DNA of 64,000 nucleotides from an uncultured Calditrichaceae bacterium (GCA_964456445.1 CAYWBI010000004.1:4110-68109); one strand, 5' to 3'. Shown: positions 268-49,254, counted from the first letter of the stretch. Notes: a model not told the origin generated them from the letters alone. Translations and numbers: made by a program.

Positions 268-1635
268 ATGAAAAATGTTTTACTAATTGACGATGAACCC
301 GAAATGCTGGAAAGCATGAAAAAATTAATGTCCAGGCGCGCTGATTGCAACCCCACACTTTTGCAGGATCCGGTGAAGGCATTGACGCTGGTCAAGGAAA
401 AACGGTTTGATTTGATTATCACAGACCTGAACATGAAAAGCGTGTCCGGTCTGGATATCCTTAGGGCCGCCCTCGAAGCCTTCCCAGATGCCACCGTTAT
501 CCTGATATCCGGTTATGGAACCATCGATACCAGTGTAAAGGCAATGAGCGAGGGGGCTTTTGATTTTATTGAAAAACCGTTTACATCAAAAAAACTCTTT
601 TCTACCATCGAACGGGCCTTTGAGCAAACTTATAAAAAAATTGAACAGATTGATCCTTCAAAAAGTAATGACCCTTTCCATGGTATTGTGTACCGGAGCA
701 CCCAGATGATCGAACTGATCAATGTTATCCATCGGGTAGCCAGAGGGAACATGAATATTCTTATCAGCGGAGAGAGCGGAACGGGAAAAGAACTCGTTGC
801 CCGTGCCATACATGCAACAAGCAAAAGAAATGAGGCGCCATTTGTACCGGTAAATTGTGGCGCACTACCGGAGAACCTGTTCGAAAGTGAAATTTTTGGT
901 CACGAACGCGGGGCCTTTACCGGCGCGATAAAGGCCAAGCCCGGTCTTTTGGAATTTGCCAGTCAGGGTACTTTTTTTCTTGATGAAATTGGTGATTTAA
1001 GCCTGGCCATGCAAGTAAAACTGTTACGTATGCTGGAAGACCATAAAATCCGGCGTGTTGGCGGCACAAAAGAAATTGAGACCGATGTCCGCGTGGTTGC
1101 GGCAACAAATAAGAACCTTGAATCGGCCATAATAGAAAAAAGGTTCCGCGAGGACTTATACTATCGGCTGAATACTATCCATCTCACGATCCCACCGCTA
1201 AGGGAAAGACCCGATGACATCATCCCTCTGGCCAATCATTTTCTATCAAGGCTTAGTAAAGAAAACAACCATATGGTCTATAGGTTTTCTCCGGGGGCGA
1301 TCAAAATGTTACAAAACTTAACCCTGCCCGGCAATGTCCGTGAACTACAAAATATGGTCAGCCGTGCTTACTATTTATGCAACAATTCTGTCATTCAAAA
1401 ACAAGATCTGCCAATAGGGAACCAGGGCCATGCCACCTTATTTGCGGATGATGTCCTAAACCTGTCCTATAAAAATGCCAAGGACGCCATTTTTGAAAAG
1501 TTTGAAGTAAAATACCTTTTGTTTAATCTAAAGAAACACGGCGGCAATATTTCGCAAACTGCCGATCAATGTGGTCTGGACCGGCGTACCATACACCGCC
1601 TGATAAAAAAACATAATATCATTCTGGATGAGTAA
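268..1635 (+). CDS. Sigma-54-dependent response regulator (REC + AAA+ sigma-54 interaction + Fis-type HTH; NtrC family)
   Basis: N-terminal receiver domain (DLIITDLNM). Walker A is GESGTGKE and the sigma-54 contact loop is GAFTGA (ERGAFTGA). C-terminal HTH reads ISQTADQCGLDRRTIHRLIKK. Tightly coupled to the upstream kinase. Confidence 0.9.
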   Translation: MKNVLLIDDEPEMLESMKKLMSRRADCNPTLLQDPVKALTLVKEKRFDLIITDLNMKSVSGLDILRAALEAFPDATVILISGYGTIDTSVKAMSEGAFDFIEKPFTSKKLFSTIERAFEQTYKKIEQIDPSKSNDPFHGIVYRSTQMIELINVIHRVARGNMNILISGESGTGKELVARAIHATSKRNEAPFVPVNCGALPENLFESEIFGHERGAFTGAIKAKPGLLEFASQGTFFLDEIGDLSLAMQVKLLRMLEDHKIRRVGGTKEIETDVRVVAATNKNLESAIIEKRFREDLYYRLNTIHLTIPPLRERPDDIIPLANHFLSRLSKENNHMVYRFSPGAIKMLQNLTLPGNVRELQNMVSRAYYLCNNSVIQKQDLPIGNQGHATLFADDVLNLSYKNAKDAIFEKFEVKYLLFNLKKHGGNISQTADQCGLDRRTIHRLIKKHNIILDE

Positions 1636-1987
1636 AAAAGTGTATTTTCAGGTGCCCTTACAACTGATAATCTTATATATAATTCGCTTTAAAATTTACC
1701 AGGGTATTCATCCGGCATTAAATTGTAACTTATATATTCAATAAGCAAAAGTGTTTCTTTCACTAAGATAACAGATAGACCACGAGCGTCTAAATGTGGA
1801 ATGAAATATTTTACTTTTGCTTTATTATTACTTGTTTGCTTCTACTGGGTTTTGTGTGGATACAGAATAATCCTTTGAATGAACATAGATGATTTCTGAA
1901 ATCAAAATAAATTAAATCCATTAGAATGCCATCCCGCAAATGGAATGCAAAGTTAATGGTTCCAACTGTTGCAGAATATGTAAAGTT

Positions 1988-2250
1988 GGGGCTAAAGCCC
2001 CATTAGTTGCGTTGCCCGCTTCCATCCCCGCCATAAATGGCGGGGTTAGTTTGTGGCCGCACTCTACCATAAATAAGGCACGATCCCACCTGCCGAGCAT
2101 GAGATAACTGAGGCACCTTCATGACTAACCCCGGGATTTATCCCGGGGACAAACTACCCTAACGATTAGCCTGGGCTTTAGCCCCTGTAGTTGTTGCGCT
2201 AAAACCCCAATGAGTTCTGTCTTTCTTCCATCCACGAGATAAATCTCGTG
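1988..2250. repeat. Cluster of short GC-clamped palindromes / hairpin modules in an 890-bp ORF-free spacer
   Basis: Perfect palindromes: ccccgccat-aa-atggcgggg (2026-2045), ccccgggat-tt-atcccgggg (2129-2148) and cacgagat-aa-atctcgtg (2233-2250). GGGCTwwAGCCC hairpins sit at 1988-2001 and 2173-2184. The prefix cttccatcc precedes two of the palindromes. Confidence 0.7.
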
Positions 2251-2524
2251 TCAATTCATGAAGCGTCCTGAAATAGGTTGACTGTTTTTGCCGCTTTTCC
2301 CGGATGAATCCCTGTGGGAAGCACCCATGTACAAAACAGCAACCGCCGTAGAGGACAATTTACGATTAGACAATCCTGTTATCCTGTCTAATAAATATTC
2401 TTACAATCTAAGAATTTACCATCAAGAAACCCGGTAGAGCCACTTGTTTAAGTAGCAATACGCATTTTCTTGTTACGAGGTGTATCAATCCCTGCAAAAA
2501 ATTTAAACCTTGTTTTGCACGAAG

Positions 2525-3103
2525 TCACGATTTATTCAGAGCCTGCTCAAAGATATCAACCCCCTGGCAGCCCAACAGCAACTTTTTATCCCACATAAAG
2601 GCGGGCAGAGTTTTTACCCCAAGACCAAGCGCATTGTAGCGTCGTTTGTCCAGGCGCAGTTGATAGGTCGGAACGGTTAAAGCCAACAAAGCCTCACCGG
2701 AATCCAGCCCTGCCTGAACAGCTATCTGTCCCAACACGCCGTTGTCTTCCAGGTTGGCGCCTTCGTTCCAATAGGCCTGCATGGCCGTTTTTTGAAAGAC
2801 ATCCAGCTTGTTTTTGTCACGGGCAAACTCAGCGAGCCTTAACACTTTTCCGGTATTATATGTTTTATCCGGGAAGGGGACGTTGTCCAGGCCAAAATCA
2901 CGGGCATATTTTTCCACATATAGCCTAAACGGCCGATAGCGGGCGTCGCTGGTATCCACCCCGCCGGGCGGCGTTTCGGGATGTAGTTCCATACCAAGCC
3001 AGAGGAAGGAAACCCCGTAAACTTCCTTTAGCTTAATCATCACCGAGTGTTCGGCAATGTAGCAAAAGGGACAGATCAAATCTGAGAAATAGCGTATTTC
3101 CAT
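2525..3103 (-). CDS. DsbA-family thiol:disulfide oxidoreductase (FrnE/HCCA-isomerase-like)
   Basis: MEIRYFSDLICPFCY carries a CPFC thioredoxin-fold active site near the N-terminus. I chose the start at the internal ATG (3101-3103), which has GGAG 8 nt upstream. The track ORF extends to 3196. Confidence 0.7.
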   Translation of the reverse strand: MEIRYFSDLICPFCYIAEHSVMIKLKEVYGVSFLWLGMELHPETPPGGVDTSDARYRPFRLYVEKYARDFGLDNVPFPDKTYNTGKVLRLAEFARDKNKLDVFQKTAMQAYWNEGANLEDNGVLGQIAVQAGLDSGEALLALTVPTYQLRLDKRRYNALGLGVKTLPAFMWDKKLLLGCQGVDIFEQALNKS

Positions 3104-3251
3104 AACCGGCTCCGTATAAAAAACAAGAGCATAACACCGGATTCCTAAAATTGCATCACGCTTTCTTAAACTTTTTAAATGTCCTGGCCTGGACAAGCAT
3201 GAAACTAAAAAATAATTTTAATTTTCGGATTGGTATTGTTTTTATAATACC

Positions 3252-10095: not shown

Positions 10096-10398
10096 ATTCC
10101 GGGCTTGCCCCGGAATCCAAGCCAGGGATGGCGCCTTATCGTTTGGAACCTTGGTTGGGCACGGATATCGGTTTTATTTCATGCTTTATCGTTTAGATTT
10201 CTGCCTCTGCAGGAATGACAAGATTGTGAATTCTCATTAAGATTCCCCCTGAATCCTCGGGGAGCGGGAATGACTGTTGACAAGGTATTTTCACACAGTC
10301 TCTAAAATCATGGGGTAAGCAAGACCCACCTAACCCACGAATTCATTCGTGGGAAACAGGCATAGAATACGAGTAATCGAATCCGATTTATCGGATTC
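10096..10398. repeat. Cluster of hairpin modules in a 1.24-kb ORF-poor divergent spacer
   Basis: Hairpins present: attccggg-cttgc-cccggaat (10096-10116); attccc...gggaat enclosing an inner GC hairpin (10242-10271); cccacgaat-tc-attcgtggg (10334-10353); gaatccgat-tt-atcggattc (10379-10398). Confidence 0.65.
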
Positions 10399-10713
10399 TA
10401 TATTTTAAAGGCGATTATTAAAAACAAAAGATGGATTGTTTTTGAAATCAGGATAAAATCCAGCCCAAACGTTGATATATCAATACAGAAAGTGCACTCA
10501 AAAATTATTTAGGACAGCTGTGTTAATCTATAATACATTTCTGTTTTAGGGGACACAAAGCGCAAAACTCATCCATCCATGCCCTCCTGTTTCAAAAATC
10601 TGGGGAAAATACGTCTCGCGCATATTTTGCCCAATTCATGTTTTTTCAACCCTATTTTGCGCTACGCAGGCAAAAGGCCATGAATATAACCCCATATTAC
10701 GGGCTTTTGTTTT

Positions 10714-13059: not shown

Positions 13060-13148
13060 TGGTACCGAGGGCCGGACTCGAACCGGCATGGAGTTTAAGC
13101 TCCGAGGGATTTTAAGTCCCTTGTGTCTACCAATTTCACCACCTCGGC
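13060..13148 (-). tRNA. tRNA-Leu (anticodon UAA), long variable arm, CCA encoded
   Basis: The reverse complement folds by hand. Acceptor GCCGAGG/CCTCGGT (G1-U72). Anticodon arm AGGGA-CTTAAAA-TCCCT. T-arm GCCGG-TTCGAGT-CCGGC. A long extra arm is present and the 3' ACCA is in the genome. Confidence 0.9.
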
Positions 13149-13178
13149 ACGAACAACATTGGTATCTTTAAAATCTCG

Positions 13179-13251
13179 AGGCGACGGTCGGATTCGAACC
13201 GACGCATAAAGGTTTTGCAGACCTCTCCCTTAACCACTTGGGTACGTCGCC
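13179..13251 (-). tRNA. tRNA-Cys (anticodon GCA), CCA not encoded
   Basis: The reverse complement is GGCGACGTA-CCCAAGTGGTTAAGGG-A-GAGGT-CTGCAAA-ACCTT-TATG-CGTCGGTTCGAATCCGACG-TCGCCT. The cloverleaf is verified by hand. Confidence 0.9.
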
Positions 13252-13385
13252 ATAAATAATATTCTTTTTTTACTACGCCGGGTAACGCCCACTTTTTAAC
13301 AGAAATGACTATTGTGATAAATCAGAGCGGGTAAGAAATGTGCCTGAAAAAGGGCCATCGACTTTGGCGTTTGTAAAATAAAAAA

Positions 13386-13460
13386 GAGCGAGAGACGGGA
13401 TTCGAACCCGCGACCCCAACCTTGGCAAGGTTGTGCTCTAGCCAGCTGAGCTACTCTCGC
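13386..13460 (-). tRNA. tRNA-Gly (anticodon GCC), CCA not encoded
   Basis: The reverse complement is GCGAGAG-TA-GCTCAGCTGGCTAGAGC-A-CAACC-TTGCCAA-GGTTG-GGGTC-GCGGGTTCGAATCCCGT-CTCTCGC-T. The track ORF 13296..13547 overlapping it is spurious. Confidence 0.9.
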
Positions 13461-13597
13461 TAATCCAGCGCTTATTTCAGCGTTGTGAGCAAAGAATATA
13501 CGGACGGTTTTTATTTCTGTCAAACAAATTTTTATGGAATTTTCCATTTATTTATTTGTATAAAACCATGCCATTTCTTCAATGAACAAGAAAACAG

Positions 13598-13955
13598 TGG
13601 AGACGCCGGGAGTTGAACCCGGGTCCGGACAAGGACCAAAATGAACATCTACAACCATAGTCAATGTTTAAATCTTACTTTAACACAGGTACGTTAACAA
13701 AACCACGCGCTAAAGCCAGCCCACTAAATATGTCCTTAAGCCCGCAGGCGCTGCTTAAGTCCAATCTGCCCAAAGTTGGCGTTACAAATCTCCCCGGCAA
13801 ATTAGAGGGAAATGTAACGTAACAGTCATATTACTATGCTGCTAATGCGTAATTATTTTCGGCACTTATGTGCTTTCCGATTAATCACGGGATAACCGGA
13901 ATCCCGGGTTGCCGTTCAAATCCTTCACTTGTCCGTCGAATCCAAGATCGTCCCC
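13598..13955 (-). ncRNA. ssrA: tmRNA (SsrA), tag peptide AENNYALAA
   Basis: The reverse complement starts GGGGACGATCTTGGATTCGACGG. It ends with the tRNA-like CCGGGTTCAACTCCCGGCGTCTCCA. The internal reading frame gcc gaa aat aat tac gca tta gca gca tag taa spans 13863-13831. Confidence 0.9.
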
Positions 13956-29235: not shown

Positions 29236-30388
29236 ATTCTTTTATTTTACGGTACAAGGTCCGTTCACTTATTTGCAAGGCCCGAGCGGTTTTCCTGCGG
29301 CTGCTGCTATATCTTCGTAAAGTATCTTTTATCAATTCGCGTTCCATACCGGCCAGGGTCATGGGCTTTACTTCTTCGCCGGAAATACCGTCGCCAGCAA
29401 CGTCACCGATCGTTCCATAGGTTTCCTTTGATTCAATCACGCTTTCCGGCCGCCGCTCCATCAAGGTGGAAAACATCTGCTTCAGTTCGGTCATGTCTAA
29501 TTTAAGGGCAACAAGGGTCCGATAAATAAGTTCCCGTTCGGCCTGTTCGGGAGTTTTGTTCAGGGCCATAGGCAAAGAGTCCGACCCCGCTTGAAGCTGC
29601 CCGATGTTCAGGGCAGAACGGACATAATCCGAGCGAACAACCTGGCCACGGTTAAGGATAATCGATGTTTCCACAAAATTACGTAACTCACGTACGTTGC
29701 CCGGCCAGTCAAACTTTAGCATCACCTGAACGGCATCGGGTGAAAACCCTTTAAAATCGATTTTGTTTTTTTCCACATATTTTTTAGCAAACAGTTCCAC
29801 GAGCACGGGGATGTCATTTACCCGCTGGCGCAGGGGCGGAATACTTAGCGTTATTGCCTTTAAACGGAAATAAAGATCGCGCCGGAATTGTCCCTGCTGC
29901 ACGGCCTCTTCCAAGTTACGGTTTGTAGCCGCTACAATGCGTACATCCACTTTTTGCAACTCGGTCCCGCCAACACGCATAAATTCCGATGTTTCCAACA
30001 CGCGCAAAAGTTTCACCTGAGTGTTAAGCGGCATCTCACCGATTTCATCGAGAAAGATGGTCCCTTTATTGGCCGCTTCGAAATAGCCTTTTTTTTGTCC
30101 GATGGCCCCGGTAAAGGATCCCTTTTCATGACCGAACAGTTCGGATTCGAGAATCCCTTCCGGGATGGCGCCGCAATTTACGGTTACCAATGGACGGTTT
30201 CGCCTGGCACTTAACTGATGGATGGCCGTGGCCACTACTTCCTTACCGGTGCCGCTCTCCCCAATTATCAACACGGAAAGATCGGTTGGGGCAACCATCA
30301 TCACGGTTTGCAGCAATTCCTCTATCTTGGGATGGCTGCCATAAAAGCCGGTAATTTTTTGCAGCTCTTCAATCGAAAAATTTTTCAT
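29225..30388 (-). CDS. Sigma-54 enhancer-binding protein without a receiver or sensory domain (AAA+ + HTH only)
   Basis: The AAA+ core begins about 25 aa from the N-terminus. Walker A is GESGTGKE and the loop is GSFTGA. The C-terminal HTH is RKTARALQISERTLYRKIKEYG. It overlaps the lptE-like start by 11 nt. Confidence 0.85.
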   Translation of the reverse strand: MKNFSIEELQKITGFYGSHPKIEELLQTVMMVAPTDLSVLIIGESGTGKEVVATAIHQLSARRNRPLVTVNCGAIPEGILESELFGHEKGSFTGAIGQKKGYFEAANKGTIFLDEIGEMPLNTQVKLLRVLETSEFMRVGGTELQKVDVRIVAATNRNLEEAVQQGQFRRDLYFRLKAITLSIPPLRQRVNDIPVLVELFAKKYVEKNKIDFKGFSPDAVQVMLKFDWPGNVRELRNFVETSIILNRGQVVRSDYVRSALNIGQLQAGSDSLPMALNKTPEQAERELIYRTLVALKLDMTELKQMFSTLMERRPESVIESKETYGTIGDVAGDGISGEEVKPMTLAGMERELIKDTLRRYSSSRRKTARALQISERTLYRKIKEYGL

Positions 30389-30600
30389 GGAATATATATT
30401 TAAATCCTGTGGAGTTACAATAATTGAATTTAGAGATTTTTATTTTTTAATTCAAACAGAAGAGCAGATAATACGGGTATGAAACGTTGGCTTAGGTTTA
30501 TGGCTTTTTCAAGATTGTGGTAAAAGTCGCAACGCTTGTAATGCTACCCAAAAAACAACCCACATTATTTAAATATTTTTGAACGAATAATACACAACTC

Positions 30601-48736: not shown

Positions 48737-49214
48737 ATAACTACCTGTCTTTATAAAATGATTGTTGAATACCGTGTGGTAAAGAAAATTTACAATGAAA
48801 AATTATAAGCTAATTTTTACATCTTGTCAAATATATCATCGGCGGATGAAAGATAGGCAATAGTTTGAAATAAAAAAATTGTCCATGCGTTTTTTCCCTT
48901 GGGCAATATCTATGGGACTTTAATACTATCCCGGCTTGATAAAAACGGTACAGGGAGTGGGAGGGCAACACGAAAAAAACAGCCATAATTACGGATAAAT
49001 ACAATGTACAATTTGGCGCTACTGGCTTTTGTGTGGAAATAGAACAGGCCTATTAAGAAACCTGAATGCTCCTGAATTAAAAATGAATGAAAACCATTGG
49101 ATTTTGATTTCGTTTTAATAAGCAAATGGTACGGACAAGTCAATCACTTGACTTTCAATCAAATTGTTTTTCTTCTTTGAATAGCCCGGGGACGAACGAT
49201 CCGGTTGACTCATC

Positions 49215-49254
49215 GGGGCTTTAGCCCCTGAAGTTGTCGGGCTAAAGCCCCCAT
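49215..49254. repeat. Copy of a 39-nt double-hairpin unit also present at 2173-2211
   Basis: 49216-49254 (gggctttagcccctgaagttgtcgggctaaagcccccat) matches 2173-2211 (gggctttagcccctgtagttgttgcgctaaaaccccaat) at 34/39 identities without gaps, counted by hand. Confidence 0.7.

What the first reader, a model, noticed from the sequence alone, without database searches (positions are those of the whole stretch)
1988..2250. Twenty-nt palindromes with a constant AT-WW-AT centre, variable GC arms and exact 103-nt spacing
Three perfect palindromes were read directly: ccccgccat-aa-atggcgggg (2026-2045), ccccgggat-tt-atcccgggg (2129-2148) and cacgagat-aa-atctcgtg (2233-2250). Their centres are exactly 103 nt apart twice (2035.5, 2138.5, 2241.5). 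The first and third are preceded by the same 9-mer, cttccatcc. Their stems differ at most positions but stay fully complementary (ccccgccat versus cacgagat), the pattern expected when structure is selected rather than sequence. Two more members of the same design occur 8 kb away: cccacgaat-tc-attcgtggg (10334-10353) and gaatccgat-tt-atcggattc (10379-10398). The host spacer (1636-2524) has no ORF of 60 aa or more in any frame. I know of no named element family with this design. It is neither CRISPR-like nor a simple terminator, and I see no RAYT/TnpA gene in this window.
Basis: seen in the sequence. Interest (0 to 1): 0.62.

Follow-up and report, generated by a model that had tools for sequence, protein, structure and literature searches.

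The report
Transposase hairpin repeats inside a miniature transposon
The palindromes are real copies of a hairpin module that normally brackets a small single-strand-DNA (Y1/HUH) transposase gene; here three gene-less copies sit inside a 604-bp miniature jumping element, and this transposase subclass was previously reported to have no such repeats.

Summary
All three palindromes, the 103-nt spacings and the two distant copies are confirmed. They are not free-standing. They lie inside a complete 604-bp MITE (1838-2441) with ISL3-type inverted ends and an 8-bp target duplication, ACTTGTTT. Each palindrome is the large hairpin of a 61-nt unit: ACTAA tag, 8-bp stem, TTYA loop, about 22 nt, then GGGCTTTAGCCC.

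The assembly holds 112 such units. All are intergenic except one in a spurious upstream ORF at a Y1 locus. The inner stem base pairs covary strongly. Head-to-head doublets are spaced 103-105 nt apart.

The same units bracket three diverged single-copy Y1 (HUH) transposase genes elsewhere in this genome. Hairpins of the same loop polarity occur on each side of the homologous gene in about 60% of 78 loci from other genomes of FCB-group phyla.

The proteins match 'subclass 1.2' of Quentin et al. 2018, which was described as lacking REPs. By sequence they are IS200-like, not classical RAYTs.

In this genome about 80% of units ride inside TIR-bounded MITE families or a 338-bp tandem repeat.

Verdict: a real REP/BIME-like cluster, and a new variant of a known kind. 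Recognition of the hairpins by the Y1 enzyme is inferred, not shown.

The parts
1830..1837 (.). Left copy of the 8-bp target-site duplication, ACTTGTTT
   Evidence: Identical 8-mer at 2442-2449 directly outside the two inverted ends.
1838..2441 (.). Complete 604-bp non-coding composite MITE ('family A', ISL3-type) that holds all three palindromes
   Evidence: Every module is repeated 11-35 times in the genome. It aligns end to end with 455-464-bp canonical copies. An exact 8-bp duplication is seen in 8 of 17 paired copies.
1838..1859 (+). Left terminal inverted repeat, GCTTCTACTGGGTTTTGTGTGG
   Evidence: 93 matches to GGCTCTACTGGNTTTNNTGTGG in the genome and none to the reversed control. The same ends bound a 1288-bp ISL3 insertion sequence in relative G022.
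1988..2050 (-). Unit U1: small hairpin GGGGCTAAAGCCCC (1988-2001), spacer with cttccatcc, large hairpin 2026-2045, tag TTAGT (2046-2050)
   Evidence: nhmmer hit C4:6159-6098, E 3.8e-12. It aligns with the flanks of the C111 Y1 gene and has the same CCCCGCCA stem.
2124..2185 (+). Unit U2: tag ACTAA, large hairpin 2129-2148, spacer, small hairpin GGGCTTTAGCCCC (2173-2185)
   Evidence: nhmmer hit C4:6233-6293, E 7.4e-13. 87% identical to family D copies. Corresponds to the left unit of the canonical family A doublet.
2196..2261 (-). Unit U3 (diverged): decayed small hairpin GCGCTAAAACCCC (2196-2208), cttccatcc, large hairpin 2233-2250, tail
   Evidence: Head to head with U2 at the canonical 103-nt spacing. 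Aligns with the 5' flank of the C31 Y1 gene and shares its CACGAG stem.
2420..2441 (-). Right terminal inverted repeat (reverse complement GGCTCTACCGGGTTTCTTGATG)
2442..2449 (.). Right copy of the target-site duplication, ACTTGTTT
10330..10398 (+). Solo variant unit: tag CTAA, large hairpin 10334-10353 (loop TTCA), 25-nt spacer, second hairpin 10379-10398 (loop TTTA)
   Evidence: Same layout as the 61-nt unit. Region 10304-10410 has 4 other copies in the genome, one of them on C233.
49015..49254 (+). Truncated second family A MITE: left inverted end, a unit whose large hairpin is partly deleted, and the doublet centre GGGGCTTTAGCCCC-TGAAGTTGTC-GGGCTAAAGCCCCC (49215-49252)
   Evidence: nhmmer hit C4:53291-53336.
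268..1635 (+). Left flanking gene: sigma-54-dependent response regulator, whose 3' end faces the element
   Evidence: Pfam Sigma54_activat 235 bits, Response_reg, HTH_8.
2525..3196 (-). Right flanking gene: DsbA-like thioredoxin-fold protein, convergent with the left gene
   Evidence: Pfam DSBA 78.5 bits.

Best explanation
The palindromes are the large hairpins of a 61-nt DNA module. The module consists of the tag A(C/A)TA(A/G), an 8-bp stem (CCCC plus 4 variable bp), the loop TTYA, the returning stem, about 22 nt, and the small hairpin GGGCTTTAGCCC.

This module is the end structure of a small IS200-like Y1 (HUH) transposase element. One copy lies on each side of the gene in mirror orientation. 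The gene's TAA stop codon sits in the loop of the right small hairpin. When the gene is deleted, a head-to-head doublet remains, with the large hairpins 103-105 nt apart. This is the equivalent of a REPIN or PATE.

Window 1988-2261 holds three such units in alternating orientation (-, +, -), a BIME-like cluster. U2 and U3 form the canonical doublet. U1 is an extra copy of the right half.

The whole cluster is a passenger inside a 604-bp ISL3-derived MITE, which inserted between two convergent genes and duplicated 8 bp of target.

Shown: the anatomy, the copy numbers, the covariation, the link to the Y1 genes, the ISL3 ends and the target duplication.

Inferred: the Y1 proteins bind, and possibly cut, the hairpins as single-stranded DNA, reading the TTYA loop and the foot while paralogue-specific stems co-evolve with them. 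Also inferred: in this genome most copies spread by hitch-hiking on DDE-type MITEs rather than through the Y1 enzyme.
For: 1. MITE. Inverted ends at 1838-1859 and 2420-2441, with ACTTGTTT on both sides. 93 such ends occur in the genome, and many contigs break in them. A 1288-bp insertion sequence with the same ends, an 8-bp duplication and a 410-aa ISL3 transposase (DDE_Tnp_ISL3, 244 bits) has 16 copies in relative G022.

2. Unit family. There are 112 nhmmer hits. Only 1 of 112 lies in an ORF of 150 aa or more, although such ORFs cover 83.6% of the genome. Doublet spacing is 103-105 nt in 22 of 25 cases.

3. Structure under selection. Six stem variants recur five or more times (GGGA/TCCC, GCCA/TGGC, ATCC/GGAT, GTCC/GGGC, TACC/GGTA, GCCC/GGGC), alongside rarer ones such as CACC/GGTG and CAGC/GCTG. 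They are 96.7% paired against 52% after shuffling. The pair-counting tool gives 97.1% against 72.6%, with 0 of 500 shuffles as high and slid controls at 33-47%.

4. Link to Y1 genes. Three intact Y1 genes (C111, C264, C31; 42-56% identical to each other) each sit between two small hairpins and inside alternating arrays of units. Each has its own stem type.

5. Conservation. Among 78 homologous loci from Bacteroidota, Ignavibacteriota, Calditrichaceae, KSB1, Cloacimonadota and Zixibacteria, there are 82 TTYA hairpins against 8 TRAA hairpins upstream, and 85 TRAA against 20 TTYA downstream. The stop codon lies in the loop in 19 loci.

6. Amplification elsewhere. Copy numbers in other genomes carrying this gene range from 0 to 68, and nearly all hits are perfect palindromes although the search pattern does not require it.

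7. The locus is real. Metagenome contigs from four runs of three studies (2017-2020) carry the left junction or longer stretches without a difference; one contig spans the whole element.
Against: No experiment or read data show that the Y1 proteins act on these hairpins.

About 80% of units in this genome sit inside TIR-bounded MITE families (A, B, D) or a 338-bp tandem repeat. Y1-driven spread is therefore not needed to explain their number.

The proteins fail the curated RAYT model (28-34 bits against a cut-off of 80). They find no E. coli TnpA-REP structure even at E = 10.

The GTAG or CGTC tags that define the known REP superfamilies (PMC3733652) are absent.

No full ISL3 copy is assembled in this genome; only a fragment lies at C142:9901-10056.

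No empty site or insertion polymorphism was found.

About 40% of the foreign loci show no perfect hairpin on a given side under my simple detector.
Confidence: 0.82

Rival explanations
1. The units in this genome are active REPINs that the Y1 enzymes themselves copy. The surrounding inverted ends and duplications would then be incidental, and the window cluster would have grown by Y1-mediated insertion next to existing units.
For: The same core occurs inside at least three MITE families with unrelated ends (A, B, D), so it must have moved between contexts. BIME-like alternating arrays lie next to the C111 and C264 genes. The window's tail-to-tail 103-nt junction recurs only in the C111 array. 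In Melioribacteraceae genome G006, 68 copies are dispersed.
Against: Only about 11 of 112 units lack a recognisable MITE or repeat context. Near-identical young copies share the MITE ends and target duplications. No unit-sized insertion polymorphism was seen. Recombination between copies can also shuffle cores.
Confidence: 0.2
2. The hairpins are primarily RNA-level signals, such as intrinsic terminators or 3'-end stabilisers for the two convergent genes. Their repetition would be secondary.
For: They lie between the 3' ends of convergent genes. Hairpin 2026-2045 matches the simple terminator scan. REPs and MITE hairpins are known to affect mRNA ends (established knowledge; PMC3733652 background).
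Against: The terminator scan finds 2 sites against 1.1 expected. The other hairpins lack T runs. Units occur in both orientations and inside mobile elements. No Rfam family matches. The mirror-image loop polarity around Y1 genes points to DNA recognition. RNA runs from the same samples did not cover this organism at all, so there is no transcript evidence either way.
Confidence: 0.12
3. The hairpins are only the internal sequence of an ISL3-derived MITE and have nothing to do with the Y1 genes. The resemblance to the Y1 flanks would come from MITE fragments that landed beside those genes.
For: The C111 Y1 locus is bounded by a family A left end and a family D right end. Most units are inside MITEs.
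Against: Hairpins with the same polarity (TTYA loops upstream, TRAA loops downstream) occur in 48 and 49 of 78 homologous Y1 loci from other phyla, with different stems and without these MITE ends in the flanks read. The ISL3 insertion sequence of G022 shares only the roughly 22-nt ends with family A and holds none of the TTYA-loop hairpins in the sequence read.
Confidence: 0.04
4. It is a gene for a new structured non-coding RNA family.
For: Strong covariation and a significant fold.
Against: No promoter-like excess (1 found against 2.9 expected). Both orientations occur. Copies have target duplications. Copy number differs widely between relatives, from 0 to 58. There is a direct physical link to DNA transposase genes.
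Confidence: 0.03

Closest known systems
REP / BIME / REPIN elements with RAYT (TnpA-REP) Y1 transposases of Proteobacteria (E. coli, Pseudomonas; PMC3333891, PMC3116915, PMC2817692)
   Same: Short GC-rich hairpins at high copy number, strictly intergenic. Inverted doublets of fixed size. Alternating clusters. The same hairpins flank a low-copy Y1/HUH gene in mirror orientation. Different paralogues have their own hairpin variants.
   Different: The protein belongs to the IS200-like class 1, not RAYT class 2: it scores 28-34 bits against a cut-off of 80 on NF047646 and finds no TnpA-REP structure. There is no GTAG or CGTC tag. The unit is a double hairpin (large plus small) with a conserved TTYA tetraloop. 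The stop codon often lies in the small hairpin's loop (19 of 78 foreign loci; the C111 and C31 genes here). In this genome most copies ride inside TIR-bounded MITEs.
TnpA-Y1 'subclass 1.2' of Quentin et al. 2018 (PMC6006769)
   Same: Length of 143-145 aa. Y motif YIKNQEEHH (Y---Q--HH). WQ motif. Low copy number with diverged paralogues. Occurrence in Bacteroidota.
   Different: [quoted passage not shown] Here the genes are bracketed by conserved double hairpins that are amplified to dozens or more than 100 copies in some genomes. The range also extends to Ignavibacteriota, Calditrichaceae, KSB1, Cloacimonadota and Zixibacteria.
IS200/IS605 insertion sequences and their gene-less derivatives (PATEs)
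   Same: TnpA-like protein: NF033573 scores 59-71 bits against a cut-off of 55, and the best solved relatives are the ISDra2 and IS608 TnpA proteins. Hairpins at the element ends. Gene-less elements made of the two ends.
   Different: The gene copies are single and 42-56% identical, not multiple identical copies. The two ends are mirror images (TTYA on the left, TRAA on the right) rather than both being read on one strand. No tnpB gene is present.
DDE-transposon MITEs such as Correia elements of Neisseria or Nezha of cyanobacteria; here ISL3-derived
   Same: Terminal inverted repeats, a fixed-length target duplication (8 bp), no ORF, dozens of copies, and an autonomous ISL3 relative with the same ends.
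   Different: Its interior is not a remnant of its parent insertion sequence. It is a module belonging to a different transposase class (Y1).

Membership tests
REP/REPIN-RAYT system | Short palindromic repeat at high copy number, confined to intergenic DNA | tested here: met
   112 units; 1 of 112 lies in an ORF of 150 aa or more, against 83.6% genome coverage by such ORFs; hairpins about 9-fold above the Markov expectation.
REP/REPIN-RAYT system | The same repeats flank a low-copy Y1 transposase gene in inverted orientation | tested here: met
   C111, C264 and C31 loci. In 78 foreign loci the loop polarity is mirrored about the gene. No such gene lies in the window itself.
REP/REPIN-RAYT system | Inverted doublets (REPINs) of fixed size | tested here: met
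   22 of 25 head-to-head pairs are spaced 103-105 nt.
REP/REPIN-RAYT system | The transposase matches the curated RAYT model (class 2 TnpA-REP) | tested here: not met
   NF047646 scores 28-34 bits against a cut-off of 80. No TnpA-REP structure is found at E up to 10.
REP/REPIN-RAYT system | GTAG (or CGTC) tetranucleotide at the hairpin foot | tested here: not met
   The foot is ACTAA...GGGGA / TCCCC...TTAGT. Definition taken from PMC3733652.
REP/REPIN-RAYT system | The Y1 enzyme binds and cleaves the repeat as single-stranded DNA | not testable with these tools
   Needs biochemistry.
IS200/IS605 insertion sequence | TnpA Y1 protein with HUH and catalytic Tyr | tested here: met
   PF01797 scores 94 bits; NF033573 scores 59-71 bits against a cut-off of 55; H53, H55 and Y113 are invariant.
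IS200/IS605 insertion sequence | Several near-identical gene-bearing copies per genome | tested here: not met
   Three copies, 42-56% identical, plus one fragment. Relatives have 1-5 copies with unequal scores.
IS200/IS605 insertion sequence | Left and right end hairpins read on the same strand (asymmetric ends) | tested here: not met
   The ends are mirror images: TTYA loops upstream, TRAA loops downstream.
TnpA-Y1 subclass 1.2 (PMC6006769) | Y---Q--HH motif, about 148 aa, low copy number with diverged paralogues | tested here: met
   YIKNQEEHH or YIENQDEHH; 143-145 aa. Assigned by motif only, not by the authors' clustering.
TnpA-Y1 subclass 1.2 (PMC6006769) | No associated REP or terminal secondary structures (as described by the authors) | tested here: not met
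   Conserved flanking double hairpins and amplified copies.
ISL3-derived MITE | Terminal inverted repeats matching those of an ISL3 insertion sequence | tested here: met
   GGCTCTACTGGG.TT..TGTG ends on the 1288-bp insertion sequence of G022, which has a DDE_Tnp_ISL3 transposase. A related end, GGCTCTCTTGG..TGGGTAAATA, lies beside the ISL3 fragment at C142.
ISL3-derived MITE | 8-bp target-site duplication | tested here: met
   ACTTGTTT in the window. Exact in 8 of 17 paired copies, and within 1-2 mismatches in 3 more.
ISL3-derived MITE | Short, non-coding and multicopy | tested here: met
   604 bp here and 442-464 bp for the eight canonical copies aligned; no ORF of 60 aa or more; 93 ends in the genome.
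ISL3-derived MITE | An autonomous partner in the same genome | tested here: inconclusive
   Only one PF01610 fragment, at a contig end. The assembly has 360 contigs that break in repeats.

The most novel reading that the evidence does not exclude
The 'orphan' IS200-like subclass 1.2 Y1 proteins may be the enzymes of a distinct REPtron-like system that spans the FCB superphylum. Its recognition module would be a double hairpin with a conserved TTYA tetraloop. The stems would co-evolve with each paralogue, and the gene's stop codon would be built into the hairpin. The module also recurs as cargo inside unrelated TIR-bounded miniature elements: at least three families here and two in a Melioribacteraceae genome. 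This suggests either a preferred insertion niche or a benefit to the carrier element.
Probability: 0.45. Interest if true: 0.7.

Novelty: new variant of a known kind. Interest (0 to 1): 0.55.

Why it matters
REP/RAYT systems are the best-studied case of a 'domesticated' transposase with a resident population of hairpin repeats. They are known mainly from Proteobacteria and are tied to class 2 Y1 proteins.

This locus shows the same lifestyle for a different, IS200-like Y1 subclass that the reference classification lists as having no associated repeats. The evidence spans Bacteroidota, Ignavibacteriota, Calditrichota-like and neighbouring phyla. That gives this orphan protein family a testable DNA substrate.

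The locus also shows two transposition systems nested in one element: a Y1 hairpin module carried by DDE-type MITEs.

On the practical side, these repeats explain many contig breaks in this assembly: dozens of contigs end in the family A inverted repeat. They can also be mistaken for small RNAs or terminators.

Tried and rejected
- **Rfam.** The whole window at gathering thresholds gave only tmRNA and three tRNAs. The spacer at E up to 10 gave only chance-level hits, the best being anti-hemB at 19 bits against a cut-off of 49.5.
- **CRISPR-like or tandem array.** Rejected: the units alternate in orientation and sit in a transposon with a target duplication.
- **The 9-mer CTTCCATCC as a family signal.** Rejected: 55 copies against about 33 expected, and only 6 lie beside hairpins.
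- **Autonomous ISL3 in the same genome.** Only a fragment was found. No pair of inverted ends lies 1-3 kb apart.
- **Transposase candidates near stray ends on C61, C187 and C330.** None found.
- **Empty site or insertion polymorphism in metagenomes.** None was seen, although assembled contigs drop rare variants.
- **Transcription evidence.** The four RNA runs from the same samples or studies do not cover this organism, not even the flanking genes.
- **Synteny of the C31 Y1 gene with its 80%-identical Calditrichaceae homologue.** No shared neighbours within 1.5 kb.
- **Target duplications for the two carrier families in Melioribacteraceae G006.** Unresolved.
- **Literature search for the motif strings and for REPs of Bacteroidota.** Nothing beyond PMC6006769 was found. 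Subscription journals are not covered.

Full report
**Observation**

Their centres are 103 nt apart twice. CTTCCATCC precedes the first and third palindromes. The two further palindromes at 10334-10353 and 10379-10398 are also present. The spacer 1636-2524 has no ORF of 60 aa or more.

The pattern is far above chance. The genome (4.39 Mb, 360 contigs, 43% G+C) holds 120 perfect hairpins with a stem of at least 7 bp and a TTTA, TAAA, TTCA or TGAA loop. Ten first-order Markov genomes gave 13 +/- 4. Three of these four loops (TAAA, TTTA, TTCA) are the commonest of all 256 tetraloops, and TGAA ranks about eighth. Folded as single-stranded DNA, 1980-2265 gives z = -4.9.

**What surrounds the palindromes**

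BLAST of the spacer against the genome shows that nearly all of 1816-2442 is made of modules repeated 11-35 times, many of them at contig ends. The outermost modules end in inverted repeats: GCTTCTACTGGGTTTTGTGTGG at 1838-1859 and, on the other strand, GGCTCTACCGGGTTTCTTGATG at 2420-2441. The 8-mer ACTTGTTT lies directly outside both (1830-1837 and 2442-2449).

Eight of 17 paired copies in the genome have an exact 8-bp flanking duplication, and three more are within 1-2 mismatches. The genome has 93 such ends and no match to the reversed control.

A complete genome of the same order (G022) carries 16 copies of a 1288-bp insertion sequence with these ends and an 8-bp duplication. Its 410-aa transposase has the Zn-ribbon, HTH and DDE domains of ISL3 (DDE_Tnp_ISL3, 244 bits).

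The window element is therefore a complete 604-bp ISL3-type MITE, which I call family A. It sits between the 3' ends of a sigma-54 response-regulator gene and a DsbA-like gene. Metagenome contigs from four runs of three studies carry the left junction or longer stretches without a difference, and one contig spans the whole element; no empty site was seen.

**What the palindromes themselves are**

Aligning all copies shows a 61-nt unit: A(C/A)TA(A/G), CCCC-N4, TTYA, N4-GGGG, A, about 22 nt, GGGCTTTAGCCC. Iterated nhmmer finds 112 such units. Only one lies in an ORF of 150 aa or more, although such ORFs cover 83.6% of the genome. That one is a spurious extension upstream of a Y1 gene.

The outer CCCC/GGGG and the loop are constant. 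The inner four pairs vary but stay complementary:
- Variants include GGGA/TCCC, GCCA/TGGC, ATCC/GGAT, GTCC/GGGC, TACC/GGTA, GCCC/GGGC, CACC/GGTG and CAGC/GCTG.
- They are 96.7% paired, against 52% after shuffling.
- On an alignment of the window units with the Y1 gene flanks, the pair-counting tool gives 97.1% paired against 72.6%. Seven of the 8 large-helix pairs change on both sides. None of 500 shuffles scores as high, and slid controls give 33-47%.

The 9-mer is a subfamily version of the spacer at the hairpin foot and is not enriched on its own.

Units pair head to head with their large hairpins 103-105 nt apart in 22 of 25 cases. This explains the 103-nt spacing.

In the window, U2 (2124-2185, +) and U3 (2196-2261, -) correspond to the canonical family A doublet. 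U1 (1988-2050, -) with its 3' flank is an extra copy of the right half. It joins tail to tail at a 103-nt spacing, an arrangement otherwise seen only in the array beside a Y1 gene.

The pair at 10330-10398 is a solo variant unit. A truncated second family A copy lies at 49015-49254.

**Link to a transposase**

A genome-wide search for Y1_Tnp (PF01797) finds three intact genes: C111 (144 aa), C264 (145 aa) and C31 (143 aa), which are 42-56% identical to each other. There is also one fragment.

Each gene sits exactly between two small hairpins, for example GGGCTTCAGCCC ... ATG, with the TAA stop in the loop of GGGC-TAA-AGCCC. Each is embedded in alternating arrays of the same units, and each paralogue has its own stem type: CCCCGCCA at C111, CACGAGC at C31, and CACCCGGA and CCCCCGAA at C264. 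The window's U1 matches the C111 stem and U3 matches the C31 stem. The gene-less doublet is thus the two ends of this element without the gene.

**Conservation**

Back-translated pattern searches found more than 535 homologous loci. The best 80 (50-63% identity) come from Bacteroidota, Ignavibacteriota, Calditrichaceae, KSB1, Cloacimonadota, Zixibacteria and one Blastocatellia.

In 78 loci with enough flank:
- The 130 nt upstream hold 82 TTYA-loop hairpins and 8 TRAA-loop hairpins.
- The 130 nt downstream hold 85 TRAA-loop hairpins and 20 TTYA-loop hairpins.
- 48 loci have at least one such hairpin upstream and 49 have one downstream.
- In 19 loci the TAA stop is the start of a hairpin loop.

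Stems differ between genomes while the loops are constant. The pattern CCCCN4TTYAN4GGGG occurs 75 times here (3 in the control), 68 times in a Melioribacteraceae genome, 58 times in one relative, and 0-22 times in others. Nearly all hits are perfect palindromes although the pattern does not demand it. The gene is present in 28 of 31 related genomes at 1-5 diverged copies.

**Classification**

The proteins pass the NCBIfam IS200 model (59-71 bits against a cut-off of 55). They fail the RAYT model (28-34 bits against 80). The solved relatives found are all IS200/IS605-type transposases, best ISDra2 and IS608 TnpA, and no TnpA-REP appears even at E = 10.

Their Y motif (YIKNQEEHH), length and low copy number fit 'subclass 1.2' of Quentin et al. 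2018. That paper describes the subclass as found in Cyanobacteria and Bacteroidetes, with 'REP: no' and no typical terminal structures (PMC6006769). The known REP superfamilies carry GTAG or CGTC tags (PMC3733652); these units carry neither.

I found no paper in the held library that describes these hairpins. I tested it here, but that note is not independent evidence.

**How the copies spread here**

About 80% of units lie inside recognisable repeat families:
- Family A: ISL3 ends, 8-bp duplication.
- Family D: about 380 bp, ends CAYTMCTGTCCGGTTTAA, 9-bp duplication in 3 of 4 copies read.
- Family B: about 215 bp, ends TGAGTTCACTCTAAAAAG, 4-bp duplication, two units tail to tail 60 nt apart.
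- A 338-bp tandem repeat family.

Hitch-hiking on DDE-type MITEs, plus recombination between copies, therefore accounts for most of the amplification and for the mosaic window copy.

In the Melioribacteraceae genome the unit again sits inside two repeat families with inverted ends (221 and 285 bp). Their target duplications could not be resolved.

**Mechanism, with status**

Shown: the anatomy, the covariation, the intergenic restriction, the association with Y1 genes, the conserved mirror polarity, and the ISL3 ends with their target duplication.

Inferred from established IS200/IS605 and TnpA-REP biochemistry: the Y1 dimer binds the hairpins in single-stranded DNA, reading the loop and foot, and may nick nearby.

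Not shown: any current activity, or any effect on the flanking genes. A terminator-like role is possible as a side effect, but only one hairpin fits the simple scan, and no RNA data cover this organism.

**Organism**

Earlier notes call it an uncultured Calditrichota. The C31 Y1 protein is 80% identical to one from a Calditrichaceae MAG and shares its hairpin stem, which is consistent with that assignment. I could not verify the name directly.

**Verdict**

It is a REP/BIME-like cluster of Y1-transposase end modules nested in an ISL3-type MITE. This is a new variant of a known kind and of moderate interest. The broader point is that subclass 1.2 Y1 proteins do have cognate hairpin repeats.

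Noticed in passing
genome contig ends (e.g. C29:32-53, C50:34-55, C74:31-52, C138:33-54 and 10290-10311): Dozens of contigs end about 45-50 nt inside near-identical family A inverted ends. This young MITE subfamily is a major cause of the fragmentation into 360 contigs, and true copy numbers are underestimated.
   Followed up: partly
G000 C264:1780-3220 (L011): One Y1 gene with its hairpin arrays lies between the methylase (481 aa) and the helicase/nuclease genes of a type I restriction-modification system. Its hairpins (CACCCGGA-TAAA, CCCCCGAA-TTTA, AAACCGCTGAAGCGGTTT) are a separate stem family.
   Followed up: partly
G000 C67:5056-5694, also C258, C290, C22, C23, C213: A repeat of about 338 bp, often in tandem, carries one unit (CCCCTACC-TTTA-GGTAGGGG ... 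GGGCTTTAGCCC) plus further hairpins such as AAACCCTTTCAGGGTTT. Its nature is unknown.
   Followed up: partly
L095-L113 (Melioribacteraceae genome G006): The same double-hairpin unit (CCCCAGCT-TTTA-AGCTGGGG ... GGGTTTTAACCC) is embedded in two dispersed families with inverted ends. One is 221 bp with ends GAGGCTGTCTCAAAAGT; the other is 285 bp with ends TGTGTGAAAATTGGGG. No clear target duplication was found.
   Followed up: partly
L014-L093 and G000 C111, C31: In 19 of 78 foreign loci, and in the C111 and C31 genes of this genome, the Y1 gene's TAA stop codon is the first three bases of the loop of the right small hairpin (GGGC-TAA-AGCCC). The gene end and the DNA structure are therefore fused.
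   Followed up: yes
G000 C209:5821-6015 (L013): A fourth, partial Y1 match covers only the C-terminal part (model positions 81-121). It is probably a gene remnant.
   Followed up: no
G000 C142:9826-10060: An ISL3 DDE fragment lies at a contig end, directly after a family D copy. Its end, GGCTCTCTTGGTAAATCTATGGGTAAATAG, resembles the family A ends. It is possibly the resident autonomous element, cut off by the assembly.
   Followed up: partly
window 758-1038; 29918-30262; 30482-30540: Other stretches of the window have 4-11 similar copies in the genome. The first lies inside the sigma-54 activator gene and is probably AAA+ domain paralogy. The other two were not examined.
   Followed up: no
window 13063-13955: A tmRNA (172 bits) and three tRNAs lie together on the minus strand (Rfam).
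   Followed up: no
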